Source of the DNA: a bacterium OM1 bin76
GTDB taxonomy: Bacteria; Actinomycetota; Acidimicrobiia; Spongiisociales; ZC4RG35
Assembly (NCBI GenBank): GCA_002238785.1
Contig: MPNA01000003.1
Span: forward strand, 7,368 to 71,367
Reading direction: 5' to 3'
Length of the DNA: 64,000 nt
Both the position numbers and the translations under genes were made by a program. The notes below the pieces were generated by a model that searched no databases, was not told where the DNA came from, and was given only the letters and a program-made list of their open reading frames with translations. The first letter of the stretch is position 1; the number at the start of each line of letters is the position of its first letter. Positions 44,099 through 57,105 of this stretch are shown one piece after another.

Positions 44099-44114
44099 CG
44101 TCACCCGGGGCGGA

Positions 44115-45494
44115 TCAGGCCAGCGCTTCCGTGATTCTGTTCGCCGCGTCCTGGGTCGCTTCCTCCGCAGTAGCCTCACCGGCCCACAGCAGATCCAACG
44201 CTGCCCCGGCGGCGGTGTCCACCGCGAAGCCCTTGGTCGTGAACGGAGTCCACGTTCCGGCCTCGACCATGGCAACGGCATCCTTCTTCCACTGGACGTC
44301 GTTGAAGCCGGCAATCTCCAGGGAACTGCGCCGAGTCGGTGTGGCAACCTGGCTCCATATTTCAAGACCCCTGGTGTCCGTGATGGTCTTGGTGAAGGCC
44401 CACGCAGCTTCGGGATTCTCTGACTGGGAAGAAATCGAGATGGTTCCCAACTCGAGTTTTCCAGCCCTAACGCCGTTGAAACTGGGAAGAGCCGTCACGT
44501 CATAGTCGAAATCGACCGTTCCCGCCAGGGCGCCATACCACCATGGGCCCATCAGGTACATACCGGTCTGCTGGTTGCGGAAGGCCTCCAGGTGAGTTCC
44601 TCCGGCCACCACCGGGTTGGGCGACTTGCCGTCCTCGATGAGCTTGGCGAAGTAGCCCAGCATCTGGGGACTGGCGCCCTGATGGATGGTTGGCTCAAGG
44701 GCCTCGTTGATGATGGTCCCGCCACCCATGAAGCAGAAGGTGTCGTAGTTCCACGACTCGAAGGAGACCCCGAAACGCATGCCGTTGCCGATCAGCGCGT
44801 CGATCGAATTGGTGAAGGCCTCTTCATTCCACTCGCCGTTTTGGAAGAGCACCTGAGGGTCTTCCAAGCCTGCCGCCGAGAAGGCATCGCGGTTGTAATA
44901 GATCACATAGGGCTCGGTGTTGTCGGGCATTCCGTACGCCTTGCCGTTGACCAAGGTGCCCTCGACCGTGGTGGGAATGAAGTCACCCATGTCAAGCTCT
45001 TCAGCGTCCCGTGCGATGTAATCGTCGATTTGCAGGAGTGCTTCGCCTTCCGCGGTCAGCTGAGTCAACTGGAAGTTGAGCATCCGCATCACGTCCGGCG
45101 CGTTACCTGCCGCAAACCTGGCCAGCAGTTGCGGGTACTCCTCGTAACCGTTGGCGGCCAGCGGCTCCCAGTTGACTTGGACATTCGGATACTTGGTGTT
45201 GAAGTAGTCAATGCGCTGCTGGATTACCTCACCTTCCAAGCCGGCGCCCCAGGCCCAGAGCGTGATCTCGCCACCGATGTCGTCGGAATCGGGTGCGGCC
45301 GTGGTCGTAGGTGCGGCCGTGGTGGGCGCAGCAGTGGTCGCCGGGGCGGCCGTCGTGTCGGCGGTGTCATCGCCGCAGGCCGCCAGGAATGCTGCCGCGG
45401 CCGCGGCCGTACCGCCGAGGCGGATGAATTCGCGTCGGGACATTCCGGCCTGCTTGGCCCGCCGGATAATGTCCATTTCCTTGGATAATCGCAT
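44115..45494 (-). CDS. sugar ABC transporter substrate-binding lipoprotein (CUT1 family, Tat-type signal)
   Basis: MSRREFIRLGGTAAAAAAFLAACGDD (RR motif plus lipobox), a TTAAPTTAAP linker, and an SBP_bac_1-like body. Confidence 0.8.
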   Translation of the reverse strand: MRLSKEMDIIRRAKQAGMSRREFIRLGGTAAAAAAFLAACGDDTADTTAAPATTAAPTTAAPTTTAAPDSDDIGGEITLWAWGAGLEGEVIQQRIDYFNTKYPNVQVNWEPLAANGYEEYPQLLARFAAGNAPDVMRMLNFQLTQLTAEGEALLQIDDYIARDAEELDMGDFIPTTVEGTLVNGKAYGMPDNTEPYVIYYNRDAFSAAGLEDPQVLFQNGEWNEEAFTNSIDALIGNGMRFGVSFESWNYDTFCFMGGGTIINEALEPTIHQGASPQMLGYFAKLIEDGKSPNPVVAGGTHLEAFRNQQTGMYLMGPWWYGALAGTVDFDYDVTALPSFNGVRAGKLELGTISISSQSENPEAAWAFTKTITDTRGLEIWSQVATPTRRSSLEIAGFNDVQWKKDAVAMVEAGTWTPFTTKGFAVDTAAGAALDLLWAGEATAEEATQDAANRITEALA

Positions 45495-45586
45495 TTTGTA
45501 TTCCTTTCTTTATTGAGGCTGTGTACTCACTCGAAGCCACTGGGGCACCTGGGAGGCGCCTTGGGCACCCCTACGCTGCTCCAGGT

Positions 45587-46369
45587 TCAGACTGCCGAGG
45601 GAATGTGTGACAGGTCTCGGGCGATGAACTCCTCACACGCTTCACGGGTGATGTAGGGCAATACAGAGTCCCAGCGAAGCGAGTCTCGAAGTATCTTGTT
45701 GTAAGCGGAGTCTCTGACGAACTCTTTGGGATCCATATCCTCCTGCAACTCGCACCAGATCATCCGGTTTCCCTTGCCCAGGTAGCGGTTCCAGGGAAAG
45801 GCATAGTCGGCGGTTCGGTCCGCCCGGCATGTGCGGATCCTGACCCATCCGTCCAACTCTGCGTATCTTGCCAGATGGGGACCCTCGAGCCACTCGTCGA
45901 ACCCCTCGGCGTGCTCAGCACCGACCTCGAAGCGTTCGACCACACAGCCACCGCTGCCGACCTGGTCCCGTCCGATGGCGCCCACCACCTTGGAGACGCT
46001 CATCATCGTTCCGTTGAACGGCTCCTCCTCCAACGTTGGATACTTCGACTCTCGTTCCAGCGTGGGTTCGTCCAGTCCTCCGGTAACTACTTCGCTGCCG
46101 ATCCAAGCGTGCATGTCTGGGATGCTGGTGGCCACATAGGGAATGAAACGGGTGGCCTGGGAAGAGTTGAAGGCCGCTGGAAGACCACTCTCAGGATCGA
46201 AATCGCGAATTATCTTGTAGCTGGAGGCTCCCAGTACTGCATAGTGACGACCGAAGTCGTCGAAGTGCCAGGGGGTCCAACCGTCAAGCTCTTCTTGCAG
46301 AGGGGGAGGACAGTCGACACGACAGACCAGAAGCGGGCGCTCGTCGGGCGGAACACTTGCCATACTCAC
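45587..46369 (-). CDS. hypothetical protein, paralog of 41521..42246
   Basis: Shared C-terminal pattern …RDSLRWDSVLPYITREA… and ERFEVGAEHAEGFDEWLEGPHL…. Confidence 0.4.
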   Translation of the reverse strand: MSMASVPPDERPLLVCRVDCPPPLQEELDGWTPWHFDDFGRHYAVLGASSYKIIRDFDPESGLPAAFNSSQATRFIPYVATSIPDMHAWIGSEVVTGGLDEPTLERESKYPTLEEEPFNGTMMSVSKVVGAIGRDQVGSGGCVVERFEVGAEHAEGFDEWLEGPHLARYAELDGWVRIRTCRADRTADYAFPWNRYLGKGNRMIWCELQEDMDPKEFVRDSAYNKILRDSLRWDSVLPYITREACEEFIARDLSHIPSAV

Positions 46370-46638
46370 CTGCCTTTTTGCAACATTCGATCATTAGATG
46401 ACCGATCACTTAATGATCCATGCTAGGTTGAGTTACCGTTCACCGACTGCCGTAGGCTCGGTTTTTTTATCGATGAAGGTCGTCATTAGGTCGGCCGACT
46501 CCAAGTCAACAGGATGGCAGACCAGGGTTTCCCATTCACCACCCCACCTCTCGCCAGGATCAGGGGAACCTGCAGGGAAGACACCAAGACCGTTTGGCGT
46601 TGTTCTCAGATGAAACCGTGGTGGTCTAAGCCGCCTGC

Positions 46639-47730
46639 CTAGTCCAGCCGGACGCCGCTGGCTTCGGCTTCCGCCACCGCCGAAGAAACCTGCTCGGCAC
46701 GGCGAGTCCGCGCCGAGCGGAGGCCGGCTTCGATCACCGCGATCCCTAAAGCAGAGGGGACCGGGTCTCCATGATTCACTGCATTCGGGTAACCGAGAGC
46801 CAGATCGCAGAAACCATGCACCGGGAGAGTTCCCGGATAGAGAGTGGCGCCGTGCATCAAGGGAAGGGCGAAGTCTTCTCCGTCCTCACGAACCACCTCG
46901 ATGCGGTCCCGCTCCAGGTCAACGATCACGACTCCCTCTGTTCCGAACACCCTCACCTCCATATGGTGACGTTGGGATGTCGGGACCCCCGCTCCACCCG
47001 AGACCGACACCAGGGGACCCTGGCGGGTGGTGGACAGGAATGCGTCAAACAGGTCGCTGCCCGCCGGGCCCGCGGTAACCGCTCCCATTACTTCGGCAGG
47101 AATCAGACCGGTGAGCCAGAACACCAAGGAATAGAGATGGCTCAACTGCCCATAGGCATAGCCGCCGTCATCGCCGACCCAGGTTGACGGTTCCGGCGGA
47201 CTCTCCGCGCCGGGTATGGAGTCCTCCTCGCCAGAGAAAAGGCCTCTAGCAGGAGAGGCCATCTGGGCAACCACATGCTCCAAGCGGCCGATCCGACCTT
47301 CCCTGATCCACTCCCGCGCCGCTGCGGCCTGGGGAAGGAATTGCCATCCGTGCGGAACCAGCAGGACTACACCCTGTTCCTGGGCCCCTCTCACCATGTC
47401 GAAGGCGTCAGCGGCCGTGATGGCCAGCGGCTTCTCACACATTACGTGCAAGCCCCGGTCCAGGGCGGACATGGTTTGCTCGTGGTGAAAACTGTGCGGC
47501 GAGGAAACCACCACCGCATCCAGTTCGTCCCAAGGCAGGTGGTTGTGATCCTCGGTAGCGATAGGGGCGCCGAACCGGTCTGCAACTGCCTTTACCTCAG
47601 CGGCGCCCTTCCGGCAAACAGCCCGGACTTCCACATCAGGACGGGACGCAAGAACCGGAAGGTGGTTCTCCACCGCCCACCACCCGGCGCCGATCACGGC
47701 AACTCTCAGGGGGAATCGGTTCATGCCCAC
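46639..47730 (-). CDS. Gfo/Idh/MocA-family oxidoreductase
   Basis: LRVAVIGAGWWAVENHLPVLASRPDVEVRAVC…EKPLA. Confidence 0.8.
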   Translation of the reverse strand: MGMNRFPLRVAVIGAGWWAVENHLPVLASRPDVEVRAVCRKGAAEVKAVADRFGAPIATEDHNHLPWDELDAVVVSSPHSFHHEQTMSALDRGLHVMCEKPLAITAADAFDMVRGAQEQGVVLLVPHGWQFLPQAAAAREWIREGRIGRLEHVVAQMASPARGLFSGEEDSIPGAESPPEPSTWVGDDGGYAYGQLSHLYSLVFWLTGLIPAEVMGAVTAGPAGSDLFDAFLSTTRQGPLVSVSGGAGVPTSQRHHMEVRVFGTEGVVIVDLERDRIEVVREDGEDFALPLMHGATLYPGTLPVHGFCDLALGYPNAVNHGDPVPSALGIAVIEAGLRSARTRRAEQVSSAVAEAEASGVRLD

Positions 47731-47802
47731 ATGCAGAATTCTACATGGCGTGGGCCGCAGACGCCCTGGCTTCCTGAATTGCCGGTTGGAAGTGAGACTG
47801 CC

Positions 47803-48036
47803 CTAAATGAAGAAGCCGCTGACCAGTTCTGCGAGTACAGCTAGACCGATGGCCCCTCCCACCCATTTCATCCACTGCAAATCATTGTGGAGTACCGCCA
47901 CCGCGGCTTTCAGGTCTTCTCGGGTCGCCAGCAGGTCTTCTCGGGTCGCCAGGGGCTCCAAGGCCATGGCCAGCGCATTTGTCTGAGCCTCGCTGAATCC
48001 CGCCTCTCGGAGAGCCACTCGTTGAGTTGTCTTCAT
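47803..48036 (-). CDS. small coiled-coil protein with C-terminal TM helix (DUF1640-like)
   Basis: MKTTQRVALREAGFSEAQTNALAMALEPLATREDL…KWVGGAIGLAVLAELVSGFFI, 77 aa. Confidence 0.3.
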   Translation of the reverse strand: MKTTQRVALREAGFSEAQTNALAMALEPLATREDLLATREDLKAAVAVLHNDLQWMKWVGGAIGLAVLAELVSGFFI

Positions 48037-48169
48037 TTCCTAACGTCACCTCCCGTGTTCACCCTTCGTCACTTCCAGTCTAACCAGCGCCAGTCCCTCC
48101 CGCCGCCCGAAACAGGATGATTCTCAGAGGTCGAGGTGTCCAAGCCGCCGGTGGCGGACATGGCTCAAC

Positions 48170-48232
48170 GCGGATCCCGACCCTATTGGACCACGGCGAC
48201 GTATTCTGTGATCACCTGCTGGCCAGCAGCCT
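48170..48232. repeat. degenerate direct copy of the add 3-prime end (last ~15 codons plus ~10 nt of 3-prime flank)
   Basis: 48186-48232 (minus) encodes …AAGQQVITEYVAVVQ*, versus the add C-terminus …VALQQEITEYVASVL*. It shares an 18-nt identical core GCGACGTATTCTGTGATC with 53160-53215. Confidence 0.7.
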
Positions 48233-48245
48233 ATCGGGGCTCAGC

Positions 48246-51200
48246 CTACAAGGGGATTGGCAGTTTGAGGAGCTTGGTTTTCTGATGAGAACGGCGAGCA
48301 CTCGCCCATTGGACCACAAGTTGGTCCTGGGTGAATAGGATCACCTGATGGTCGTTAGATGATTGGAGAAGGTATTCCAGCACCTGCTCCTTGCGTTCGG
48401 GGTCGGCATGCACGGTGGGATCGTCAAGTAACACCGGACACGGTTCGTGTCCGTCGGTCAATACCTGAGCGAGAATAATCCGCAACAGTAAGTACACCTG
48501 TTCAGCGGTCCCATGAGATAGGAGTGCCGCCTCCCTGATCATGCCATCCATATGTCGCAGTTTCACCTCAAGCGTCTCTGGGTCGACGAATGCGTCCACA
48601 TAGCGCCCACCTGTGACAAATGGAATCCGCTCCGTCATGAGGGCTTCCAACCTGGGCGCTAGAAGCCGATGGGCGCGCTCAGCAGCTCTTTGCAGGTATT
48701 CCCTGGCCGTGTCTAGGGTACTCTGGAGACGCTGCACCTTTGCCAGCTCACTCTTAGCTTTTTCGACAGTTGCCTTGGCCGTGGCCACATCCACGCGGTC
48801 TGTGCTTATTTGTTCAAGTTGTCCAGCAGCCCTGCTTGCTTCTTTACGAGCTTCTCGCAATTGACGATCACTCCGTTCTAGGACCACCCGGATGTTGTTT
48901 GACCCCAGTAGTTCCCCTTCTAAACCAGCAGACAACTCCTTTGCCTTTCGTCTGAGTTCCCTCGCTTCACGCTTGACGTGGGCGGCGTCGGTCTGCCATT
49001 CTTCTACCGAAAGACCCCCTAACGCCTCTTGAAAACGGCCCCACTCCGCAACGTCCTCTTGTCGCTGCTCCGCCAAACCCTCCAGATGACCCAACAGACC
49101 AACAGCCACCCTCAAGAGCTCACCCTCATCACCAGAACCATCCCCCCCATACGAGACCACAACACTACGCAACTCCTCAAAAGCCTCCTCCCGCGCAAGA
49201 CTCCGCCTCGCTTCCTCCTCATCAAACCGCCTACGCCGCCTGGCTAGCTCCGTAGTCTTCGAATGCTGCGCTTCAATTTCCTCTTTACACATAGGCGCCA
49301 CATCCAAGATGGCTGCCAAAGAATCGGTCTCATCTGCTGCCAACTCAACATCCCGGCGTGCACTCTTTGCCTCCTCCCTCCACTCCTCTATTGATCGACC
49401 CGAGAGTGCCTCTTGAAAACGGCCCCACTCCGCAACGTCCTCTTGTCGCTGCTCCGCCAAACCCTCCAGATGACCCAACAGACCAACAGCCACCCTCAAG
49501 AGCTCACCCTCATCACCAGAACCATCCCCCCCATACGAGACCACAACACTACGCAACTCCTCAAAAGCCTCCTCCCGCGCAAGACTCCGCCTCGCTTCCT
49601 CCTCATCAAACCGCCTACGCCGAAATATCATTTCCTCGGTCACTAGCCTTTCGGCGTCGATTGTCTTCGTTTCTAAGGTTTTACCATGAACCTTGGCGGT
49701 CATTTCCTCCACTCTTCTTCTCGCTAGATCCACATATTGTCTAGAGCTTTCAGCTTCAACTCGCCACGCTTCTACCGAGCGATCCCCCAGCGCCTCCTGA
49801 AAACGTCCCCACTCCGCAACATCCTGCTGTCGCTCTCGCGCCACCCGCTGAAGATCACTCAATAAATACGTGGACTCACCGAGAACCTGGCCTTCATCAC
49901 CAGATGCATCTCCCCCGTATAGAGACAAAACCCTCCGCAGCTCTGCAAAAGCATCCACCCGTTCAGCTTTCCGCTTCGCCTCCTCGTCATCGAACCGCCT
50001 GCGCCGCGCTACCATCTCCTCAAGCCTGCGCCGTTCGGAGGTTTGCTCACTCCAGGCGCGTTCCCTGTTGTAGAACTCGGCTATCGCGGCATCTGGATCA
50101 AGAGGAAGCTCCCACTCGTGAAGGAGACGATGAGCTTCAACCACCCTTGCATCGAAGGTCTCTCGCTCCCGGAGTTGACGCTCCAGAAACTGGAGCGCAA
50201 CCGGTGCAGCTGATCTCTGCTTAGACGGAACGACTCGAAGAAACCCCAATCCCAGAGCTACTAGGACTCCGGCCGAGATTCCATACAGAAGCTCCGTAGT
50301 AACCATCCAGACCCCAGCAGCCGCCACAACACCAAAACCGGTTAACATCGCCACTCTCCAACCCGACAAACCGGTCTCCGTTGGCGCTTGTATGCGACGG
50401 GCCTCCACCACTTGAGATTGCAGTTCCTGCTGTGGAGGAGGGTTTTCTCTTAGGGGAATTACCCACCGCTGGACATCGCCTGGACTAGGGCATGGCTTCG
50501 GGGGTGAGGCGTCGAGCATGCCGATGCGTTCCTCAAGATTGTCGAGAGGATCGAGGTCCGTGAACCCGGATGTTGGCAGACTGTTACACCGGGCAACGGC
50601 TGATGCCATATCGGCAAAACTCATCAGCTCCCGATTGCGTGGGTCCGCATCAAGAAATCGCTGCTCCCATTCTTCCAGACGCTCAACCTTCCGCTCCAAT
50701 TCCTCCGCCCGCCTCTCCGCCTCCTCCAAGTCCTCCAAATCCTCCACTAACTCCTTCTTCAGGCCCAATTCCTCCAAACGGTCCTCAAGGGCCTCCAACG
50801 GATCAAGATCCGTCCCAACAGACTCAGGCGCACTCTGAGCGCGGCGAATAGCAATTACAAGGTCCGCGGTACTGATTTCTTCCAGAGCTCGCGGATTACC
50901 ATCAACAAACCGACGCTCCCACTCCTGCAGACGTTCAACCTCTCTTGTTAGTTCGTCAGCTTGCTTCTCGGTCTCGTCTAGACCCTCAAACGCCTCAACT
51001 AACTCCTGCTGCTGATCCAATTCCCTTAGGCGACCTTCAAGAGCCTCCAACGGATCAAGATCCGTCCCAACAGACTCAGGCGCATTCTGAGCACCACTTA
51101 TGGCAACCACAAGGTCCGCCGTATTCTCCTCCCCTAGGATCCGCGGATCCCCTTCAGGAAACTGCCGCTCCCAGTCTGTCAGTCTGGTTGCTCTTTCTGT

Positions 51201-52013
51201 CAGTTGACTTGCCCTTATTTCAGCTTCGTCACTGGCCAACGACGCCTTCAGCGCTGCCTCCCGATCCTCCAGATCCCGAACCCTTCGACGATACCTGTCC
51301 ACTCGCCTCGCTAATTCCACATATTCTTGGCGGCGTTCCTGTGTTCTGGACAGTTGGCGTTCGGCTCTTTTCACACCATCGATCGCAAGCCGAAGAGGTC
51401 TTCTTGAATTCCTGCGATCAAGTCCTACATTCTCAGTTGAAAACTTCCTTATGCGCTCAATAGCTCCCGCCGCCGTGCCACCTGCGCCACCTGCGGCGGC
51501 CTGAGCGAGACTCTCTTGTAAGGCATCGCGCTCAGTCTTGCGCTCTCGTCTTCTTAGATCGAGGATCGAAAGTATGTCTGCTTGGCTAACCGACGCTGTT
51601 ATCGGAAAGGTTGTCCGATCGAGTCCTAGCCACTTAGAACCGTCGGGACTTCCCTGATTCATCAGGTCATCGGTTACTTTCCTTCCACCCACACCTATAT
51701 CCAGAACCCTGGTACTCGGAACCCTTAGATCGCGATCTATTTCGATAATGCGCCCATCATCCAGCGCTAGCTCCAAGGTGACCTGCCAATGGTCCGGATC
51801 GTCCCAAGGCTGGCGGCGTCTCTTGAAGTCTCTCTCTGCGTTGGTTCGACCACTCCCGTGCCTACGTCCGCACAGAGCTACTACTAGGGCAGCATGCCAC
51901 GTCGATTTGCCAGACTCGTTGGGTCCGTAGACAATGTTGAGAGCCTTACCGAAATTCAAACCCTCGTCGCGCAAGTGCCCGAAGGCCCCAGCGGTAATCT
52001 TGCGGAACCACAT
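48246..52013 (-). CDS. SbcC/Rad50-like SMC-family ATPase (YhaN/SbcE-like) with central transmembrane hairpin and internal tandem repeats
   Basis: N-terminal LNIVYGPNESGKST (Walker A). C-terminal LLSHGTAEQVYLLLRIILAQ plus PVLLDDPTVHAD (signature/Walker B-like). A very long charged coiled coil lies between them. Mid-protein …WRVAMLTGFGVVAAAGVWMVTTELLYGISAGVLVALGLGFLRVV forms two hydrophobic helices. No CxxC zinc hook. Confidence 0.7.
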   Translation of the reverse strand: MWFRKITAGAFGHLRDEGLNFGKALNIVYGPNESGKSTWHAALVVALCGRRHGSGRTNAERDFKRRRQPWDDPDHWQVTLELALDDGRIIEIDRDLRVPSTRVLDIGVGGRKVTDDLMNQGSPDGSKWLGLDRTTFPITASVSQADILSILDLRRRERKTERDALQESLAQAAAGGAGGTAAGAIERIRKFSTENVGLDRRNSRRPLRLAIDGVKRAERQLSRTQERRQEYVELARRVDRYRRRVRDLEDREAALKASLASDEAEIRASQLTERATRLTDWERQFPEGDPRILGEENTADLVVAISGAQNAPESVGTDLDPLEALEGRLRELDQQQELVEAFEGLDETEKQADELTREVERLQEWERRFVDGNPRALEEISTADLVIAIRRAQSAPESVGTDLDPLEALEDRLEELGLKKELVEDLEDLEEAERRAEELERKVERLEEWEQRFLDADPRNRELMSFADMASAVARCNSLPTSGFTDLDPLDNLEERIGMLDASPPKPCPSPGDVQRWVIPLRENPPPQQELQSQVVEARRIQAPTETGLSGWRVAMLTGFGVVAAAGVWMVTTELLYGISAGVLVALGLGFLRVVPSKQRSAAPVALQFLERQLRERETFDARVVEAHRLLHEWELPLDPDAAIAEFYNRERAWSEQTSERRRLEEMVARRRRFDDEEAKRKAERVDAFAELRRVLSLYGGDASGDEGQVLGESTYLLSDLQRVARERQQDVAEWGRFQEALGDRSVEAWRVEAESSRQYVDLARRRVEEMTAKVHGKTLETKTIDAERLVTEEMIFRRRRFDEEEARRSLAREEAFEELRSVVVSYGGDGSGDEGELLRVAVGLLGHLEGLAEQRQEDVAEWGRFQEALSGRSIEEWREEAKSARRDVELAADETDSLAAILDVAPMCKEEIEAQHSKTTELARRRRRFDEEEARRSLAREEAFEELRSVVVSYGGDGSGDEGELLRVAVGLLGHLEGLAEQRQEDVAEWGRFQEALGGLSVEEWQTDAAHVKREARELRRKAKELSAGLEGELLGSNNIRVVLERSDRQLREARKEASRAAGQLEQISTDRVDVATAKATVEKAKSELAKVQRLQSTLDTAREYLQRAAERAHRLLAPRLEALMTERIPFVTGGRYVDAFVDPETLEVKLRHMDGMIREAALLSHGTAEQVYLLLRIILAQVLTDGHEPCPVLLDDPTVHADPERKEQVLEYLLQSSNDHQVILFTQDQLVVQWASARRSHQKTKLLKLPIPL
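49025..50176. repeat. three in-frame tandem 384-bp units inside the SbcC-like gene; copies 1 and 2 share a ~222-bp identical core
   Basis: 49025-49246 equals 49409-49630 (read directly). A third diverged unit starts at 49793. Each unit encodes the 128-aa module RRRRFDEEEARRSLAREEAFEELRSVVVSYGGDGSGDEGELLRVAVGLLGHLEGLAEQRQEDVAEWGRFQEAL…. Confidence 0.85.
50487..51050. repeat. 2.3 tandem 252-bp (84-aa) units inside the SbcC-like gene
   Basis: The module TDLDPLEALE(G/D)RL(R/E)EL…EWE(R/Q)RF(V/L)D…P…SVG is repeated. GGATCAAGATCCGTCCCAACAGACTCAGGCGCA occurs at both ~50800 and ~51052. Confidence 0.8.
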
Positions 52014-52016
52014 AGC

Positions 52017-53123
52017 TCAACCCACGGCTAAGTCGTTGCGGCCCTCAAGAGCACGTAACCCCGTGATAATAACCCTGTGCCGTTCGTCATCATCAAGATC
52101 GGCTGCGATCAAGTCGCGGACGAACTCCCCTCGCACTGTGGACTCCTCCTGTATAGCCGCAACATCATACCCGGGATTCAGGCTGCCTGCACGTACCACT
52201 AAATCCTGCAGTTGGCCTCGGCGTTGGCTGAGTACGGCAAGGTCAAGTTGTACAGCACTAGCCAATTCCCCATGAAGAGTGACTCTGGCTACCCCTTTAA
52301 GAGGCTCCAACGCGGCCTTCATGCGGTCCTGTATTTCTCCGAAATCAACGCATCCGCTCACATCCATTACGAGATCGTGGATCTGCAAGCTTGTAACCCT
52401 ATGCGAAGTGCGTTGAACCGTGCCCCGAGCGTCAAACGACATCTCAACTGCTCCCCCTCTGCCTTGATCCTTGAATGAAAGCGGGGCGGGAGTTCCAGGG
52501 TATGTGTGGGAATCTCCCATGAAAGGACTGTGGTAATGACCGACTATGCAATGAACAAGTCCCGCCGCGGAAATGTCGTCGGCGCGAAACGGTGCATGTC
52601 GTATCTTCTCAGGATGGGATTGCGCTACGCTTGCCCAGCCACCAATCTCCGATCCGTGAAACAACCCTAAGTGCAAAGCATCGCCTTCCACCTCAAATCG
52701 ACTTAGTGGATTCACGGTTTGTGAAGGGTTTCTATGGGCGAAGCCCCACACCCGAACACCGTCAAGGCCATCGTATGGCGTCAGATCACCCGCACCAAAT
52801 ATGTGGACGTTGGGTGACCAGTCTGCCGTCACGTAAATACTTCCTGGTCCATACCAATCGTGATTTCCGGGAGAAATCAAGACCGGAATCGGTGCCACCT
52901 CAGCGAAGAGGCGCTGCAACATCTGAACGGTGTCCGGAGTGTAAAGCTCGTGCTCGTAGAGGTCCCCAGCACACATCAGCATATCCACCTCTAAATGACT
53001 GGCCAATCGAACAATCCTGCTTAAGGTGTTTTTCAATTCGCCACGCCGCAATTGAGACAAGGTGGGCCCTCTCCCAGTAAACGGGGCATCCAAGTGGAGA
53101 TCGGAAAAGGCGAGTACCTTCAA
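52017..53123 (-). CDS. SbcD/Mre11-like calcineurin-type metallophosphoesterase nuclease (YhaO-like)
   Basis: MKVLAFSDLHLD, CAGDLYEH, SPGNHDW and GHYH are phosphoesterase motifs I-IV/V. Its stop is 3 nt from the start of the SbcC-like gene. Confidence 0.75.
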   Translation of the reverse strand: MKVLAFSDLHLDAPFTGRGPTLSQLRRGELKNTLSRIVRLASHLEVDMLMCAGDLYEHELYTPDTVQMLQRLFAEVAPIPVLISPGNHDWYGPGSIYVTADWSPNVHIFGAGDLTPYDGLDGVRVWGFAHRNPSQTVNPLSRFEVEGDALHLGLFHGSEIGGWASVAQSHPEKIRHAPFRADDISAAGLVHCIVGHYHSPFMGDSHTYPGTPAPLSFKDQGRGGAVEMSFDARGTVQRTSHRVTSLQIHDLVMDVSGCVDFGEIQDRMKAALEPLKGVARVTLHGELASAVQLDLAVLSQRRGQLQDLVVRAGSLNPGYDVAAIQEESTVRGEFVRDLIAADLDDDERHRVIITGLRALEGRNDLAVG

Positions 53124-53159
53124 GATTTATGCTCTCTTAGATGATCGTGTCTGGTGCAG

Positions 53160-53215
53160 TTCCCAACCTTAGAGAACAGACGCGACGTATTCTGTGATCT
53201 CTTGCTGGAGAGCAA
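53160..53215. repeat. native add 3-prime end that is duplicated at 48170-48232
   Basis: See the 48170 repeat. Together the two copies bracket the SbcD/SbcC-like module. Confidence 0.7.
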
Positions 53216-54167
53216 CCTTCCGATCCTCCGGTAGGAAGGAAGCGGTGACAGAGTTGCGCGCCAGTTGCGCCAGATCATCGCAGGAGAGATCCAGGGCCGT
53301 GGCGATGGCGAGGTAGTTATCCCCGACGTATCCGCCGAAGTAGGCAGGGTCGTCGGAGTTGACGGTGACCAGAACCCCGGCATCCAGCAACTCCTTGAGA
53401 TTGTGGCAGCGGAGGTCAGGGAACACCTGGAGCTTCTGGTTCGACAGAGGACACATGGTCAGAGGAATCTGCTCTCGGACCAACCGCTCCACCAGAGCGG
53501 GATCATCCGCGGCCCGCACTCCATGGTCGATGCGTTCCACTCCCAATACATCGAGAGCTGACCAGATGTATTCCGCCGGGCCCTCCTCGCCGGCGTGGGC
53601 CACAGGTCTCAGGCCAGCCTCTACAGCCCGGCGGTAAGCCTCGGCAAACAACTCAGGGGGATTACCCAACTCGCCCGAGTCGAGTCCCACCCCTTGGATG
53701 TAAGCAAGGTATGGTCGGGCCTGCTCGAAGACCTCGACAGCCGATTCGGGTGAAAGGTGCCGGAGAAAACAAAGGATCAGGGTCGACGAGACTTCCGCCA
53801 CTCTTTTCTGTCCTCGTGCGAACCCGCGGATCACCGTCCCGATGTCGATCCCCCGCTCGGTGTGCGTTTGAGGATCGAAGAAGATCTCCGCGTGACGCAC
53901 CCCGTCCGACGCCGCTTTCGCAAGGTAGGCAGCCATCAATTGGGCGAAGTCGTTCTCTGTTTGCAGCACCGCGGCAGCTTGGTAATAGATGTCGAGAAAC
54001 GATTGGAGATCGTCGAACTCGTAGGCCGCCGCAACATCCTCGACCGACTGGAACGGCAGTGCCACGCCGTTGCGCTCCCCCATCTCGAACATCATCTCCG
54101 GCTCCAGAGTGCCCTCGATATGAATGTGTAACTCGGTCTTCGGTAGGCCCCGGACGAAACTCTCCAT
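53169..54167 (-). CDS. add: adenosine deaminase
   Basis: LPKTELHIHIEGTLEPEMMFEMGERNG…FF…HAGEEGPAEYIWSALDVLGVERIDHGVRA…TVNSDDPAYF. Confidence 0.8.
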   Translation of the reverse strand: MESFVRGLPKTELHIHIEGTLEPEMMFEMGERNGVALPFQSVEDVAAAYEFDDLQSFLDIYYQAAAVLQTENDFAQLMAAYLAKAASDGVRHAEIFFDPQTHTERGIDIGTVIRGFARGQKRVAEVSSTLILCFLRHLSPESAVEVFEQARPYLAYIQGVGLDSGELGNPPELFAEAYRRAVEAGLRPVAHAGEEGPAEYIWSALDVLGVERIDHGVRAADDPALVERLVREQIPLTMCPLSNQKLQVFPDLRCHNLKELLDAGVLVTVNSDDPAYFGGYVGDNYLAIATALDLSCDDLAQLARNSVTASFLPEDRKVALQQEITEYVASVL

Positions 54168-54282
54168 GTCTCTGCTCCCTTTCATGGACATAGCTCAATA
54201 GGGACGTTGTTACTACGGGTATTTGGAAAAACGAGAGAGCGCACCCAGGCGCTCTCTCGTGAATCCAACTTAGGTGCCTGGG

Positions 54283-55602
54283 TTACAGGAACATCTCGAT
54301 CCAATCGCTGGCAAAGTAGACCAGGCTGGCAATGGAGACGACCCACATCAAGACGTGAATCTCGCTTGACTTGCCCTTCACCACCTTGATCAGGGTGTGC
54401 GTCACAAACCCGGCGGCAATACCGACGGTGATCGAGAAGGTCAACGGCATGAGGATGATCGCCAACAGTGCCGGCAATCCTTCTTCCAAGTCCGTAAAGT
54501 CGATGTGCTTGAGCAGCCCAACCATGAGGAACCCGATCAGGATCAGCACCGGCGCCGTCGCCTGCCCCGGAACAATCCCGGCCAGCGGCGACAGGACGAT
54601 AGCAATCAAAAAGAGGATTCCCGTGACCACGGACGTGAGCCCGGTCCTTCCTCCTTCTGCTACCCCCGCCGAACTCTCGATGTAGCTGGTGTTCGAGCTA
54701 ACTCCGGCCACACCGCCGAAAGCGGCACCCAGCGAGTCCACCAACAGGAGGCTCTTGAGACGACCAATCCCGCCGTCCTTCTTGGTCAACCCGGCTTGCT
54801 CGACGATGGCAGTGGCTGTGCCCATCGTGTCGAAGAAGTCGGCGAGCATCAGAGTGAAAATCGCCAGGATCGCCGACAGGAAGCCGAGTTCTGCAAACGA
54901 GTTGCCCAGGTCGAATCCCCCGAAGGTCTCGAAGTTCACTGATGCCGAGATGGTGTCCGGCACACTGGCGACTCCAGCTATCAGCGCCACGATGGTGGTG
55001 GCCACGATGGTGATGATCATCGCACCCCTCACCTTGCGCGCCACAAGAACCACACCGATCAGCACCCCGATCAAGGTCACGCCCTGGCCGGCCTCGGTGG
55101 GGAACACGAACTCGACGATCGTGCCCCCTTCTCCGTGAACCAGCCCGCCGTTGACCAAGCCGATGAACAGGATGAATAGGCCAATGCCCACCCCGATGGA
55201 GTACTTGAGACTGGTCGGTATCGCTTCCATCACGGCTTCCCGCAGGCCCAGCAAGACGAGTATGGTCACCAACACGCCCTCCCAGACCACGACTCCCATG
55301 GCTCCCTCTATCGAGAGGCCTTGGGCCGTCAAACTATAGGCCACGACCGCGTTGAGCCCCAGACCTGCCGCCATGGCGATCGGGTAGTTGGAGAAAACCC
55401 CCATGGCGATCGTCATGATTGCGGCTACCAACGCTGTACCAGCCGCTACGGCAGTGGGGTCAAGACCCGCGTCGCCAAGAATCAAGGCGTTCACGAACAG
55501 TATGTAGGCCATCACCAAGAATGTGGTGATGCCCGCGCGAACCTCCGTGCCTAACGAGGAGCCCCGCTCTGAAATGCGGAAATAGCTGTCTAAACCTTGC
55601 AC
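54283..55602 (-). CDS. NCS2-family purine permease (AzgA/PbuG-like adenine/guanine/hypoxanthine permease)
   Basis: From the GTG start: VQGLDSYFRISERGSSLGTEVRAGITTFLVMAYILFVN… is the AzgA N-terminus. AGGAGG lies 8 nt upstream of the GTG at 55602. Confidence 0.8.
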   Translation of the reverse strand: MQGLDSYFRISERGSSLGTEVRAGITTFLVMAYILFVNALILGDAGLDPTAVAAGTALVAAIMTIAMGVFSNYPIAMAAGLGLNAVVAYSLTAQGLSIEGAMGVVVWEGVLVTILVLLGLREAVMEAIPTSLKYSIGVGIGLFILFIGLVNGGLVHGEGGTIVEFVFPTEAGQGVTLIGVLIGVVLVARKVRGAMIITIVATTIVALIAGVASVPDTISASVNFETFGGFDLGNSFAELGFLSAILAIFTLMLADFFDTMGTATAIVEQAGLTKKDGGIGRLKSLLLVDSLGAAFGGVAGVSSNTSYIESSAGVAEGGRTGLTSVVTGILFLIAIVLSPLAGIVPGQATAPVLILIGFLMVGLLKHIDFTDLEEGLPALLAIILMPLTFSITVGIAAGFVTHTLIKVVKGKSSEIHVLMWVVSIASLVYFASDWIEMFL

Positions 55603-55625
55603 TATTCCCACCTCCTTCCAAATTT

Positions 55626-55644
55626 GTTGTCTACTGATAGGACA
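55626..55644. promoter_or_regulatory. imperfect palindrome TTGTCTAC-tga-TAGGACAA 24-42 nt upstream of the purine permease start (candidate operator)
   Basis: TTGTC-N9-GACAA core read from the sequence. A 10-bp direct repeat CTATTCCCAC occurs twice nearby (55603 and 55661). Confidence 0.25.
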
Positions 55645-55859
55645 ACTGGCCACTCCTCATGCTATTCCCACAGAGTGGAATTCTGGGGGGCTAACAGTGG
55701 TTTTTTTCCGCACCGACCTCTTAGATTTGCCTTCCCTGGTCCCCTAATCAGCTTTTCGAGGCCAATACCCACACGCGCCACAGGGTTCGGGCCGCCGCGA
55801 CAGATCAGGTCCCGCGACCGCCTCTCCAACTCTCGCGCCGTCGAGACAAACCCAGCCGG

Positions 55860-56096
55860 CTACGTTTCGATAACGCAGATCACCTCGCCGGTGACCACCT
55901 CGGCATCTTCTTCCACCAGGATCTCAATGATCGTTCCAGCCACAGGAGAAGGCACCTCCGTCTCAACTTTGTCGGTTTCCACCAGGGCCAGTTCGGTGTC
56001 CTCATCCACCTCGTCACCCACCTCGACCATCCACTGGAGAAGTACCACCTCGTCGACCGTCTCGCCCAGCCTGGGCATCTTCACCTCAAAAGGCAT
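55860..56096 (-). CDS. stand-alone lipoyl/biotinyl-attachment domain protein (E2-like lipoyl carrier, no catalytic domain)
   Basis: MPFEVKMPRLGETVDEVVLLQWMVEVGDEVDEDTELALVETDKVETEVPSPVAGTI is the lipoyl-lysine motif ETDKV. Only 78 aa. Confidence 0.7.
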   Translation of the reverse strand: MPFEVKMPRLGETVDEVVLLQWMVEVGDEVDEDTELALVETDKVETEVPSPVAGTIIEILVEEDAEVVTGEVICVIET

Positions 56097-56112
56097 TGGT
56101 TGGCACCTCCTT

Positions 56113-57105
56113 CTAAACGGGCGCGTAGATGTTGCGGAACATGGCGTCGACACCAGCCGGAGGACTGGCTTTCACCGTCTCCATCGCCGCCTCGATGCGG
56201 GCTGCGACTTGCCGGTCCACCTCGTCGGCCTGTCCCTCGGCCAGCAAACCTTCGGATTCCAGTCTGGCCCGGAAGGTGTTAATAGGATCCCGCTGGAACC
56301 ATCGCTCGAATTCTCCTTCCGGCCGATACTCGGCCTTGTCGGCGCGGGAATGGCCGGCGTAACGGTAGGTCTTCATCTCCAACAGAGTCGGGCCCTCCCC
56401 CGAACGTGCTCTGTCCAGAGCTTCGCTCACCGCCTTTACCGTGGCATCCGGATCCTGTCCGTCCACCATGATCCCCGGAATCCCGTAGGAGACCGCCCGG
56501 TCGGCCAGATCCTCTATGGGCGTAGTCAGGTTGATCCGGCTGTATTCGCCGTACTGGTTGTTCTCACAAACGAACACCACCGGCAGTTTCCAGATCGCCG
56601 CCAGGTTGAGACCCTCGTGGAAAGCGCCGATGTTGGATGCGCCGTCCCCGAACACCCCGATCGCCGCGTCGTCGGTTCCCTTCACCTGGGCGGTCAACGC
56701 CGCGCCGGCAGCCACCGGAATCCCGGCGCCGATGATGGCAAAAGTGGGCAGCAGGCCCAGTTCCTTATCAACCAGGTGCATGGAGCCGGCGATGCCCCCA
56801 ATGCATCCCATTTCCCGGCCCATGATCTCCCCGAGGATCGATTCGGGGGTCATTCCCAGGGCCAACCCCATTCCATGTCCCCGATAGGTGCAGGTGACCG
56901 TATCAGTCGGGCGGGCCACCGCGGCGATACCCACCGCCACCGCTTCCTGTCCCTGGGCGGTATGGGTGGTGCCATGCACCACTCCCTCGGCAAAGAGACC
57001 CTGTACCCGATCCTCGAAAGCACGGATTTCCACCATCCGCTCGTACCGCGCCACGCGGTCGGCGGCCAGAGCCAAGCGGCGTTCCATTTTCGTTCTGTCG
57101 CCCAT
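56113..57105 (-). CDS. 2-oxoacid (pyruvate/acetoin) dehydrogenase E1 component alpha subunit, TPP-dependent
   Basis: …YRGHGMGLALG…GDGASNIGAFHEGLNLAAIWKLPVVFVCENNQYG… is the TPP-binding motif. Confidence 0.8.
   Translation of the reverse strand: MGDRTKMERRLALAADRVARYERMVEIRAFEDRVQGLFAEGVVHGTTHTAQGQEAVAVGIAAVARPTDTVTCTYRGHGMGLALGMTPESILGEIMGREMGCIGGIAGSMHLVDKELGLLPTFAIIGAGIPVAAGAALTAQVKGTDDAAIGVFGDGASNIGAFHEGLNLAAIWKLPVVFVCENNQYGEYSRINLTTPIEDLADRAVSYGIPGIMVDGQDPDATVKAVSEALDRARSGEGPTLLEMKTYRYAGHSRADKAEYRPEGEFERWFQRDPINTFRARLESEGLLAEGQADEVDRQVAARIEAAMETVKASPPAGVDAMFRNIYAPV

What the first reader, a model, noticed from the sequence alone, without database searches (positions are those of the whole stretch)
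48246..52013. SbcC/Rad50-like ATPase with a central transmembrane hairpin in place of a zinc hook
The head domains are canonical: Walker A GPNESGKST at the N-terminus and a signature/Walker B-like LLSHGTAEQ…VLLDDPTVHAD at the C-terminus. The middle of the coiled coil, however, carries two consecutive ~20-residue hydrophobic helices (VAMLTGFGVVAAAGVWMVT / LLYGISAGVLVALGLGFLRVV) preceded by a Pro-rich stretch, and there is no CxxC hook. That predicts a membrane-anchored Rad50-like machine paired with an Mre11-like nuclease (52017..53123, start 3 nt downstream). Working from memory, this architecture resembles Bacillus YhaN/YhaO (SbcE/SbcF) more than canonical SbcCD, and it is poorly characterised.
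Basis: partly seen in the sequence, partly recalled or inferred. Interest (0 to 1): 0.7.

Follow-up and report, generated by a model that had tools for sequence, protein, structure and literature searches.

The report
Membrane-hairpin Rad50-like ATPase (SbcE/YhaN family)
This gene pair encodes an Mre11-like nuclease and a Rad50-like ATPase whose coiled-coil tip carries a predicted membrane hairpin instead of a zinc hook; that is the normal design of the widespread, little-studied SbcE/SbcF (YhaN/YhaO) family, and here the arms are lengthened by matched repeats.

Summary
ORF 48246..52013 (-) encodes a 1255-aa Rad50/SMC-like ATPase. It has Walker A at aa 30-38, a signature motif at aa 1164-1172 and Walker B at aa 1194-1204. 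There is no CxxC. Two uncharged hydrophobic helices (aa 554-573 and 575-592), separated by one Glu, sit near the middle.

An Mre11/SbcD-type metallophosphoesterase gene (52017..53123, -) ends 3 nt before the ATPase start.

- Pfam AAA_27 scores above its cut-off.
- The profile matches Bacillota genes in yhaO-yhaN-yhaM synteny (hhalign E 6e-55).
- The nuclease lies directly upstream in 76 of 82 loci.

The hairpin is a family trait, not a peculiarity of this gene. It is present in 98 of 116 and 135 of 140 sampled homologs across at least 12 phyla, and none has a central CxxC. The family has about 12,800 clusters at E<=1e-30.

Membrane insertion is predicted, not shown.

New here: both arms carry tandem modules (84 aa x3 and 128 aa x3), and their copy numbers co-vary among relatives (1:1, 2:2, 3:3).

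The heads are not fully canonical: Walker B is D-D and the H-loop residue is Gln.

Verdict: a new member of a known, under-studied kind. Interest is moderate.

The parts
52017..53123 (-). SbcF/YhaO-like Mre11/SbcD-type metallophosphoesterase, 368 aa, TTG start. Motifs are DLHLD, GDLYE, GNHD and GHYH.
   Evidence: Pfam Metallophos 1.2e-11. TIGR00619 sbcd 2.2e-8, below cut-off. Best solved relative is T. maritima Mre11 3qg5_C, 2e-8, with aligned DxH, GD and GNHD motifs. An ortholog lies directly upstream of the ATPase in 76 of 82 related loci.
48246..52013 (-). SbcE/YhaN-family Rad50-like ATPase, 1255 aa. Its ATG lies 3 nt after the nuclease stop codon.
51900..51926 (-). Walker A / P-loop GPNESGKST (aa 30-38).
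   Evidence: N32, E33 and K36 are invariant in 110 homologs.
50409..51185 (-). Three tandem N-arm modules of about 84 aa (aa 277-359, 360-443, 444-535). The third, next to the hairpin, is the most diverged.
   Evidence: DNA direct repeat with a 252-nt period. Alignment A1. HMM domain hits of 127-141 bits each.
50415..50513 (-). Pro-rich linker (aa 501-533, 9 Pro) inside the third N module, just before the hairpin.
   Evidence: Sequence. The equivalent region in relative P0014 is predicted with low confidence and as non-helical.
50238..50354 (-). Predicted membrane helical hairpin: VAMLTGFGVVAAAGVWMVTT - E - LLYGISAGVLVALGLGFL (aa 554-592). Arg flanks both sides, and helix 2 carries a GxxxGxxxA motif.
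   Evidence: The only segment with a Kyte-Doolittle 19-residue mean of 1.6 or more. Conserved position and length across homologs. Helix-break-helix in the AF2 model of relative P0014.
48885..50036 (-). Three tandem C-arm modules of 128 aa (aa 660-787, 788-915, 916-1043). Copies 2 and 3 are 95% identical in DNA over 243 nt.
   Evidence: TRF period 384 nt, 2.2 copies. Repeat family D1. Alignment A2. HMM hits of 214-221 bits each.
48498..48524 (-). ABC signature-type motif LLSHGTAEQ (aa 1164-1172). The family consensus is S-x-G-T-x-E-Q.
48402..48434 (-). Walker B and D-loop VLLDDPTVHAD (aa 1194-1204). The residue after the Walker B Asp is Asp, not the usual catalytic Glu.
   Evidence: D in 93 of 110 homologs, E in 16 of 110.

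Best explanation
The two genes encode an SbcF/SbcE (YhaO/YhaN)-type nuclease-ATPase pair, a bacterial offshoot of Mre11-Rad50/SbcCD. Shown here: the head is a Rad50-like ABC ATPase, and the partner is an Mre11/SbcD-type metallophosphoesterase encoded directly upstream with a 3-nt spacer. The protein has long helical arms, and in place of the CxxC zinc hook there is a roughly 40-residue uncharged helix-turn-helix flanked by basic residues. Inferred: the hairpin inserts into the cytoplasmic membrane with both arms on the cytoplasmic side and only the T-T-E turn facing out. This would tether the nuclease head to the membrane at the end of a long stalk. Small-residue motifs (GxxxGxxxA) may let two hairpins pack in the bilayer, which would take over the arm-joining role of the hook. 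The complex would then bind and process DNA ends or hairpins near the membrane, for example broken chromosomal DNA or incoming DNA. This fits B. subtilis SbcE, which acts in double-strand-break repair and transformation and gathers at the poles of competent cells. The D-D Walker B and the Gln at the H-loop position suggest a slow, switch-like ATPase. In this lineage each arm carries three tandem modules (N 84 aa, C 128 aa). Their copy numbers change together among relatives, so an N module most likely pairs with a C module in the folded antiparallel arm, and each pair lengthens the stalk by one unit.
For: Family identity:
- Pfam AAA_27, AAA_23 and SMC_N hits.
- hhalign of this clade against Bacillota YhaN proteins: probability 100%, E 6e-55.
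- BLASTP to a YhaN encoded in yhaO-yhaN-yhaM-prsA synteny: 6e-15.

Operon:
- The nuclease lies directly upstream in 76 of 82 loci.
- The spacer is 3 nt.

Hairpin:
- It is the only hydrophobic segment in the protein.
- It is present at relative position 0.44-0.52 in 98 of 116 homologs, with a median core of 47 aa. K/R exceeds D/E on both flanks: 3.4 vs 1.9 and 3.2 vs 1.9.
- It is present in 135 of 140 further cluster representatives, none of which has a central CxxC.
- It occurs in at least 12 phyla.
- The AF2 model of relative P0014 has H366-382 and H384-402 over the hydrophobic stretch, between flexible linkers.
- Some lineages carry a single Arg-striped amphipathic helix at the same place, which also looks like a membrane binder.
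- The E. coli SbcC control shows a hook and no hydrophobic centre.

Modules:
- Repeats are seen at DNA and protein level.
- Counts among relatives are 1:1, 2:2 and 3:3.
- Paralog divergence is matched between arms: 64% vs 67% in the window, 80% vs 79% in P0002.
- N-arm and C-arm repeats co-occur in 14 proteins against 1 and 5 with repeats in one arm only; Fisher p = 8e-13. This involves at least 3 clades with different periods.

Biology:
Against: - No experiment shows membrane insertion in any family member. PMC2811018 reports SbcE-YFP foci on the nucleoid and never calls the central domain transmembrane.
- The window's two helices are only moderately hydrophobic (Kyte-Doolittle 1.85). They are short (20 and 18 aa), Gly-rich, and joined by a one-residue break. 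A rough position-independent sum on the Hessa scale, recalled from memory, gives +1.4 and +2.4 kcal/mol.
- AF2 on the closest relative (P0001) left this region unstructured with pLDDT below 50. In P0014 the pLDDT there is only about 60.
- No dedicated transmembrane predictor was available.
- The Fisher test is not corrected for phylogeny.
- P0001, from a contig 100% identical to the window, has 3 N and 2 C modules. I read this as short-read repeat collapse, but it could be real.
Confidence: 0.78

Rival explanations
1. The hydrophobic helix-turn-helix is not in the membrane. It is a greasy, soluble dimerisation or tetramerisation hinge: two hairpins form a four-helix bundle that joins the arms in the cytoplasm, doing the zinc hook's job by other means.
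For: - B. subtilis SbcE-YFP forms foci on nucleoids, and its central domain is insoluble when overproduced. Both would also fit an exposed hydrophobic oligomerisation surface.
- The window's helices are only moderately hydrophobic and are Gly/Ala-rich.
- AF2 confidence in this region is low.
Against: - About 40 residues without a single charge in a protein that is 34% charged.
- Many family members have much more hydrophobic hairpins, with 19-residue means of 2.5-3.0.
- Basic residues are enriched on both flanks, as the positive-inside rule predicts.
- The core length clusters at about 47 aa, which is two membrane spans plus a turn.
- Some lineages carry an Arg-striped amphipathic helix at this position, a typical peripheral membrane anchor.
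- SbcE gathers at competent-cell poles, where the DNA-uptake machinery sits (PMC2811018; that this machinery is membrane-embedded is from general knowledge).
Confidence: 0.14
2. The pair is an anti-phage or anti-plasmid defence module of the SMC-like kind (for example Lamassu-like) rather than a housekeeping repair complex.
For: - PADLOC LmuB models hit the ATPase at 2e-18, and GajA, AriA and mad models hit more weakly.
- Structure searches also list Lamassu, Wadjet and retron ATPases.
Against: - The PADLOC hits cover only generic ABC/SMC head regions, and no model of a partner protein matches.
- Rad50 heads score best in both sequence and fold searches.
- The locus sits among metabolic genes (adenosine deaminase, purine permease, oxidoreductase, sugar ABC transporter). 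It is syntenic in a 71%-identical relative, with no mobile-element signature around it.
- The family is very broadly and regularly distributed, with a fixed two-gene layout.
Confidence: 0.04
3. It is simply a divergent canonical SbcCD, and the hydrophobic centre is a lineage-specific insertion or an annotation or assembly artefact.
For: - The general Rad50/SbcC architecture and an SbcD-like partner.
- The region is repeat-rich, and another assembly of the same DNA differs by one repeat unit.
Against: - No CxxC anywhere.
- NCBIfam SbcC and Rad50 models score 15-22 bits against cut-offs of 700-1000.
- The hairpin is conserved in hundreds of independent sequences from many phyla.
- The hairpin DNA is identical in the independent JGI contig.
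Confidence: 0.02

Closest known systems
B. subtilis SbcE/SbcF (YhaN/YhaO), Pfam PF13514 AAA_27 family
   Same: - The same N-terminal AAA_27-type head, and homologous C-terminal head (hhalign E 6e-55).
- A nuclease gene directly upstream.
- No CxxC.
- A central hydrophobic domain. The Alkalibacillus YhaN ortholog has KWIVLLLATILAGAMWSGLFGDISVFWPFVVIGTGGLLSYGL at mid-length. PMC2811018 describes a hydrophobic, insoluble central domain with a conserved Pro.
   Different: - Only about 29% identity, confined to the heads.
- There is no yhaM-like gene downstream.
- The window protein is about 270-290 aa longer because each arm carries three tandem modules.
- The organism is an uncultured, high-GC bacterium. 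The closest genome representative is a MAG labelled Acidobacteriota, not a Firmicute.
- The published work did not interpret the central domain as a membrane hairpin.
E. coli SbcCD and archaeal/eukaryotic Mre11-Rad50
   Same: - ABC-type head split by long antiparallel helical arms.
- An Mre11-type phosphoesterase partner encoded next to it.
- Best fold and profile matches are Rad50 heads.
   Different: - The apex is a CxxC zinc hook in SbcC and Rad50 (CPLC at relative position 0.48 in E. coli SbcC). Here it is an uncharged two-helix hairpin.
- Walker B is D-D instead of D-E, and the H-loop His is Gln.
- The curated SbcC, Rad50, SbcD and Mre11 models are all far below their cut-offs.
Mycobacterial Rv1277/Rv1278-type pair (named from memory; not retrieved here)
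   Same: A Mycobacterium MAG locus (L031) has the same nuclease-ATPase pair and a strongly hydrophobic central hairpin, with a 45-residue mean of 2.21.
   Different: - I did not have the H37Rv sequences, so identity with Rv1278 itself was not tested.
- Papers that mention Rv1277 or Rv1278 in the library only list them.

Membership tests
SbcE/YhaN family (Pfam PF13514 AAA_27 SMC-like ATPases) | N-terminal AAA_27-type P-loop domain above Pfam's gathering score | tested here: met
   AAA_27 scores 30.3 bits against a cut-off of 22, although only aa 1-47 align. Relative P0014 scores 40.5 bits over aa 1-219, and the Alkalibacillus YhaN scores 88.3 bits.
SbcE/YhaN family (Pfam PF13514 AAA_27 SMC-like ATPases) | Homology to YhaN proteins identified by yhaO-yhaN-yhaM synteny in Bacillota | tested here: met
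   L078 has the order yhaO-like, 984-aa ATPase, yhaM-like, prsA-like. BLASTP gives 6e-15 and 3e-9 for the two head halves. hhalign of A4 against A5 gives probability 100% and E 6e-55.
SbcE/YhaN family (Pfam PF13514 AAA_27 SMC-like ATPases) | Mre11/SbcD-like phosphoesterase (YhaO/SbcF) encoded directly upstream | tested here: met
   Gene at 52017..53123 (-) with a 3-nt spacer. The same layout is found in 76 of 82 loci.
SbcE/YhaN family (Pfam PF13514 AAA_27 SMC-like ATPases) | Unique hydrophobic central domain between the two arms, with no CxxC | tested here: met
   aa 554-592. Family-wide. The literature description is in PMC2811018.
SbcE/YhaN family (Pfam PF13514 AAA_27 SMC-like ATPases) | Role in double-strand-break repair or transformation, and physical complex with the nuclease | not testable with these tools
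   Known only for B. subtilis (PMC2811018).
Canonical SbcC/Rad50 | CxxC zinc hook at the coiled-coil apex | tested here: not met
   No CxxC in the protein. None is central in 116 + 140 homologs. The positive control, E. coli SbcC, has CPLC.
Canonical SbcC/Rad50 | Curated SbcC or Rad50 model above its cut-off | tested here: not met
   Rad50_Sulf scores 22.1 bits against a cut-off of 1000. PRK03918 scores 15.3 against 700.
Canonical SbcC/Rad50 | Complete ABC ATPase motif set: Walker A, Q-loop, signature, Walker B D-E, H-loop His | tested here: inconclusive
   Walker A, the Q-loop Gln and an SxGTxEQ signature are conserved. Walker B is D-D in 93 of 110 homologs, and the H-loop position is Gln in 76 of 110.
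Rad50/SMC superfamily (fold level) | Split ABC head with long antiparallel helical arms | tested here: met
Lamassu and other SMC-like defence systems | System-specific partner proteins and a defence-island context | tested here: not met
   Only generic head hits to LmuB and others, with no partner model hits. The neighbours are metabolic genes conserved in a relative.
Integral membrane helical-hairpin proteins (N-in/C-in) | Two hydrophobic spans with a short turn and basic cytoplasmic flanks | tested here: inconclusive
   Hydrophobicity, charge-free length and flank charges all fit, and the relative's model has helix-break-helix. However, no dedicated topology predictor or experiment was available, and the spans in the window protein are short (20 and 18 aa).

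The most novel reading that the evidence does not exclude
Across at least a dozen bacterial phyla, an Mre11-Rad50-type machine is permanently tethered to the cytoplasmic membrane by a hairpin that replaced the zinc hook. The length of its stalk is tuned by concerted duplication or loss of matched N-arm and C-arm modules, with a C period about 1.5 times the N period in at least three independent clades. If so, the distance between the membrane and the nuclease head is itself under selection. That points to a dedicated membrane-proximal DNA-end surveillance or processing pathway that has not been described mechanistically.
Probability: 0.4. Interest if true: 0.65.

Novelty: new member of a known kind. 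Interest (0 to 1): 0.5.

Why it matters
Rad50 and SbcC are thought to need their zinc hook to join arms and bridge DNA. A very large sister family replaces the hook with what looks like a membrane anchor: about 12,800 clusters at 50% identity score E<=1e-30.

This raises a concrete, testable question: why would cells fix a DNA-end-processing nuclease to the membrane? Possible reasons are handling of incoming DNA, breaks near membrane-attached chromosome regions, or control of nuclease access.

The only functional study found in the searchable library is from 2009 and did not recognise a membrane hairpin.

The matched arm-module duplications seen here offer a natural experiment on how coiled-coil arm length is kept in register and adjusted.

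For annotation, genes like this should be named SbcE/SbcF-like rather than 'AAA family ATPase' or 'SbcC'.

Tried and rejected
- **AF2 on the closest relative (P0001, 110-sequence and 2827-column alignment).** It gave no structure for the hairpin, with pLDDT below 50. I treat this as uninformative rather than negative, because a cleaner alignment for the one-module relative P0014 gave helix-break-helix.
- **Model coordinates.** They are not exposed, so I could not measure arm contacts or N-C module pairing.
- **The afdb50 fold library.** It was unavailable, so no direct structural link to UniProt YhaN or Rv1278 entries was made.
- **BLASTP self-comparison.** It returned only the identity hit. 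I replaced it with HMMs of the modules and a diagonal-masked Smith-Waterman.
- **Literature searches.** Searches for SbcE with 'transmembrane', for membrane-anchored Rad50 or SMC-like proteins, for Rv1277/Rv1278 and for PF13514 found nothing that describes the hairpin.
- **PADLOC.** Only generic head similarity was found, so the defence reading was rejected.
- **Promoter and terminator scan.** Nothing above background.
- **tRNA and Rfam scans of the window.** Both were empty.
- **The small ORF downstream of the ATPase.** It has no Pfam match and is not conserved in the relative, so I did not count it as part of the system.

Full report
**1. What is in the sequence**

The minus strand carries a 1255-aa ORF at 48246..52013 and a 368-aa ORF at 52017..53123. 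The upstream ORF ends TGA. Three bases later (GCT) comes the ATG of the long ORF. So in transcription order the nuclease gene comes first, and the two are probably translationally coupled (inference).

The long protein has these features:
- GPNESGKST at aa 30-38.
- LLSHGTAEQ at aa 1164-1172.
- VLLDDPTVHAD at aa 1194-1204.
- Five cysteines and no CxxC.

A Kyte-Doolittle 19-residue mean of 1.6 or more occurs only at aa 553-597. Read directly, the core is R553-VAMLTGFGVVAAAGVWMVTT-E574-LLYGISAGVLVALGLGFL-R593. These are runs of 20 and 18 uncharged residues in a protein that is 34% D/E/K/R. A segment with 9 Pro (aa 501-533) precedes it.

As a control, the same scan on E. coli SbcC finds the CPLC hook at relative position 0.48. 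It finds no hydrophobic centre (maximum 45-residue mean 0.64) and a D-E Walker B.

**2. What the proteins are**

*Nuclease.* The upstream protein is a calcineurin-like phosphoesterase (Pfam 1.2e-11). Its best solved relative is T. maritima Mre11 (2e-8), and the DxH, GD and GNHD motifs align.

*Head motifs.* The heads are not entirely canonical. Over the family:
- Walker A, the Q-loop Gln and an S-x-G-T-x-E-Q signature are conserved.
- The residue after the Walker B Asp is Asp in 93 of 110 (Glu in 16).
- The H-loop position is Gln in 76 of 110 (His in 15).

By analogy with other ABC ATPases, this suggests slow hydrolysis. That is an inference from general knowledge of the Walker B Glu and the H-loop His.

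**3. Family membership**

A search of 5.8 billion proteins returned 115 homologs, nearly all carrying PF13514 (AAA_27).

A scan of one genome per species found 315 relatives. The 80 kept come from Chloroflexota, Actinomycetota (including Mycobacterium and Micromonospora), Acidobacteriota, Gammaproteobacteria, Dormibacterota, Eremiobacterota, Bacillota, Bacteroidota, Armatimonadota, KSB1, Deferribacterota and Binatota.

In 76 of 82 loci a homolog of the window's nuclease lies immediately upstream of the ATPase.

Locus L078 (Alkalibacillus flavidus) shows a phosphoesterase, a 984-aa ATPase, a 312-aa protein and a PrsA-like protein in that order. I recognise this as the B. subtilis yhaO-yhaN-yhaM-prsA neighbourhood from my own knowledge of that genome. 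Its ATPase has AAA_27 at 88 bits. It matches the window protein in both head halves (6e-15 and 3e-9). A profile of six Bacillota members matches the profile of the window's wider clade at hhalign probability 100% and E 6e-55.

A full HMMER scan of 1.84 billion cluster representatives found 12,798 at E<=1e-30 and 32,199 at E<=1e-10. The family is very large.

**4. The hairpin is a family trait**

- Among the window protein and its 115 homologs, 98 have a 45-residue window with mean hydropathy of 1.3 or more. The charge-bounded core has a median of 47 aa and sits at relative position 0.44-0.52.
- Both 15-residue flanks carry more K/R than D/E (3.4 vs 1.9 and 3.2 vs 1.9). This fits both arms lying in the cytoplasm.
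- None of these proteins has a central CxxC.
- Among 140 further representatives, 135 have the central hairpin and none a central CxxC.
- ORFs translated from genome loci show the hairpin in all the phyla listed above.
- The Alkalibacillus YhaN carries KWIVLLLATILAGAMWSGLFGDISVFWPFVVIGTGGLLSYGL at mid-length.
- AlphaFold2 on the one-module relative P0014 (86-sequence alignment, mean pLDDT 83.8) predicts H366-382 and H384-402 over the hydrophobic stretch. Low-confidence linkers flank it, and pLDDT over the helices is about 60.
- The model of the closest relative, P0001, left this region unstructured. I attribute that to the very gappy alignment.

A subset of the family lacks the two-helix element: several Chloroflexota (L004, L005, L007) and proteins P0034, P0049, P0053 and P0059. 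At the same position they have one hydrophobic helix with an Arg stripe, for example GGLFATLFRAIRAFFAALLRLF, with a hydrophobic moment of about 0.7. That pattern is typical of peripheral membrane anchors (inference). A few members (P0040, P0046, P0060, P0109, P0115) show neither element.

**5. What the literature says**

The one functional study in the library is PMC2811018. It describes SbcE as SbcC-like without CxxC. Its 'unique central domain' is conserved, rich in hydrophobic residues in its first half, contains a conserved Pro, and is completely insoluble when overproduced. SbcE interacts with YhaO/SbcF in two-hybrid data, contributes to double-strand-break repair and transformation, gathers at the poles of competent cells, and forms foci on nucleoids in about 10% of growing cells.

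That paper does not call the domain transmembrane. A two-hybrid survey lists SbcE as a partner of the transmembrane kinase YabT and of SpoIIE (PMC4205851).

No paper retrieved describes a membrane hairpin in this family. From memory, unverified here, UniProt's automatic annotation marks B. subtilis YhaN as a two-pass membrane protein.

**6.

*In the window.* The N arm holds three tandem modules of about 84 aa (aa 277-359, 360-443, 444-535). The C arm holds three of 128 aa (aa 660-787, 788-915, 916-1043). They are visible in DNA as 252-nt and 384-nt periods. C2 and C3 are 95% identical in DNA over 243 nt.

*In relatives.* HMMs of the two modules count:
- 1 N and 1 C in about 20 relatives of 776-813 aa.
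- 2 and 2 in P0003, P0004 and P0006.
- 3 and 3 in the window and in P0002.

P0002 and P0003 are 97-98% identical in their hairpin-proximal N module and last C module, yet differ by one N module and one C module. P0003's first C module is a C1/C2 chimera.

*Divergence.* Paralog divergence is matched between arms: N1/N2 64% against C2/C3 67% in the window, and 80% against 79% in P0002. This fits an antiparallel arm in which N3 pairs with C1, N2 with C2 and N1 with C3.

*Across the family.* A diagonal-masked self-alignment of each arm in 111 homologs gives scores of 100 or more in both arms for 14 proteins, in the N arm only for 1, in the C arm only for 5, and in neither for 91. Shuffled arms of the window protein reach at most 71 (N) and 88 (C). 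Fisher's test gives p = 8e-13, not corrected for relatedness. The repeats fall in at least three clades with different periods: 84/120-128, 75-85/114-136 and about 120/181. In each clade the C period is roughly 1.5 times the N period, which I cannot explain.

*In the models.* Each N module is a low-confidence segment of about 37 aa plus a helix of about 47 aa. Each C module is a partly helical segment of about 45 aa plus 75-80 aa of helix. The distal arm is therefore not a plain two-stranded coiled coil.

*The one exception.* P0001 has 3 N and 2 C modules. It comes from a JGI contig that is 100% identical to the window over 7.3 kb, except that it lacks exactly one 384-nt unit. This is most simply a collapsed repeat in a short-read assembly.

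**7. Context**

The pair sits between an adenosine deaminase and purine permease on one side and a Gfo/Idh/MocA oxidoreductase and sugar ABC transporter on the other. The same order is kept in a 71%-identical relative.

PADLOC gives only generic SMC-head similarity, with LmuB at 2e-18. I therefore read the pair as a chromosomal housekeeping function and not a defence island.

The lower GC (0.56) and strong negative GC skew over 48-52 kb follow from the purine-rich Glu/Arg/Asp/Ala coding strand lying on the minus strand.

**8. How it most likely works**

Shown:
- A Rad50-like head.
- An Mre11-like partner.
- No hook.
- A conserved, uncharged helix-turn-helix with basic flanks.
- Modular arms.

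Inferred:
- The hairpin inserts into the cytoplasmic membrane with both arms inside the cell.
- Two hairpins may pack through small-residue faces (G578-x3-G582-x3-A586 in helix 2).
- The nuclease-ATPase head hangs from the membrane on a stalk.
- In this organism the stalk is two module pairs longer than in the one-module relatives. If each pair adds a helix of about 47 residues, that is very roughly 14 nm.
- The complex processes DNA ends or hairpins close to the membrane.

The main rival is a soluble hydrophobic hinge, which I rate at about 0.14. It would explain the nucleoid foci. It fits poorly with the complete absence of charge, the flank charges, the two-span length, and the amphipathic-helix substitutes.

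**9. Novelty and verdict**

The gene is a new, divergent member of a known family, SbcE/YhaN (PF13514). The hairpin-for-hook architecture is ordinary within that family, though essentially unstudied. It is not described as a membrane anchor in the literature I could search.

The concerted N-arm and C-arm module expansion appears to be a new detail.

I score interest as moderate (0.5). The finding is correct, and it points at an open mechanistic question in a very large family. It is not a new kind of system.

Noticed in passing
window 47803..48036 (-): A 77-aa ORF lies 207 nt downstream of the ATPase stop, with GGAGG just before its ATG. It has a duplicated LATREDL motif and a C-terminal hydrophobic tail (WVGGAIGLAVLAELVSGFFI), so it looks like a small tail-anchored membrane protein. 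It has no Pfam match. It is called as a gene in the identical JGI contig but is absent from the 71%-identical relative's locus.
   Followed up: partly
window 48885..50036 vs locus L083: A JGI metagenome contig (sample 3300027532) is 100% identical to window 47001-54300, except that it lacks exactly one 384-nt C-arm repeat unit. It therefore encodes a 1127-aa protein rather than 1255 aa. This is probably short-read repeat collapse, but real copy-number variation in the population is not excluded.
   Followed up: partly
homologs P0034, P0049, P0053, P0059; loci L004, L005, L007: Some family members, mostly Chloroflexota, have a single Arg-striped amphipathic helix at mid-length in place of the two-helix hairpin (for example GGLFATLFRAIRAFFAALLRLF, hydrophobic moment about 0.7). 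A few others show no hydrophobic centre at all.
   Followed up: partly
window 48402..48434 and family alignment A3: Walker B is followed by Asp rather than the catalytic Glu in 93 of 110 homologs. The H-loop His position is Gln in 76 of 110. This suggests a weak or switch-like ATPase.
   Followed up: partly
homologs P0040/46/49/60 and P0064/67/73: Independent clades also have internal repeats in both arms. In each clade the C-arm period is about 1.5 times the N-arm period (75-85/114-136 and about 120/181, compared with 84/128 in the window). The reason for this ratio is unknown.
   Followed up: partly
window 48001..52000: GC falls to 0.56 from about 0.61 elsewhere, and GC skew reaches -0.26. 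This is explained by the Glu/Arg/Asp/Ala-rich, purine-rich coding strand lying on the minus strand. It is not evidence of foreign origin, because the locus is syntenic in a relative.
   Followed up: yes
locus L001 2681..3604 (relative), corresponding to window about 55.7 kb: The 71%-identical relative carries an IS605 OrfB/TnpB (Cas12f-like) gene between the lipoyl-domain protein and the permease. The window has no such gene at that spot.
   Followed up: no
window 44000..58000, both strands: Many long ORFs (100-520 aa) lie antisense to, or overlap, the real genes, for example 55597..57168 (+) at 523 aa. These are typical spurious ORFs of high-GC DNA.
   Followed up: no
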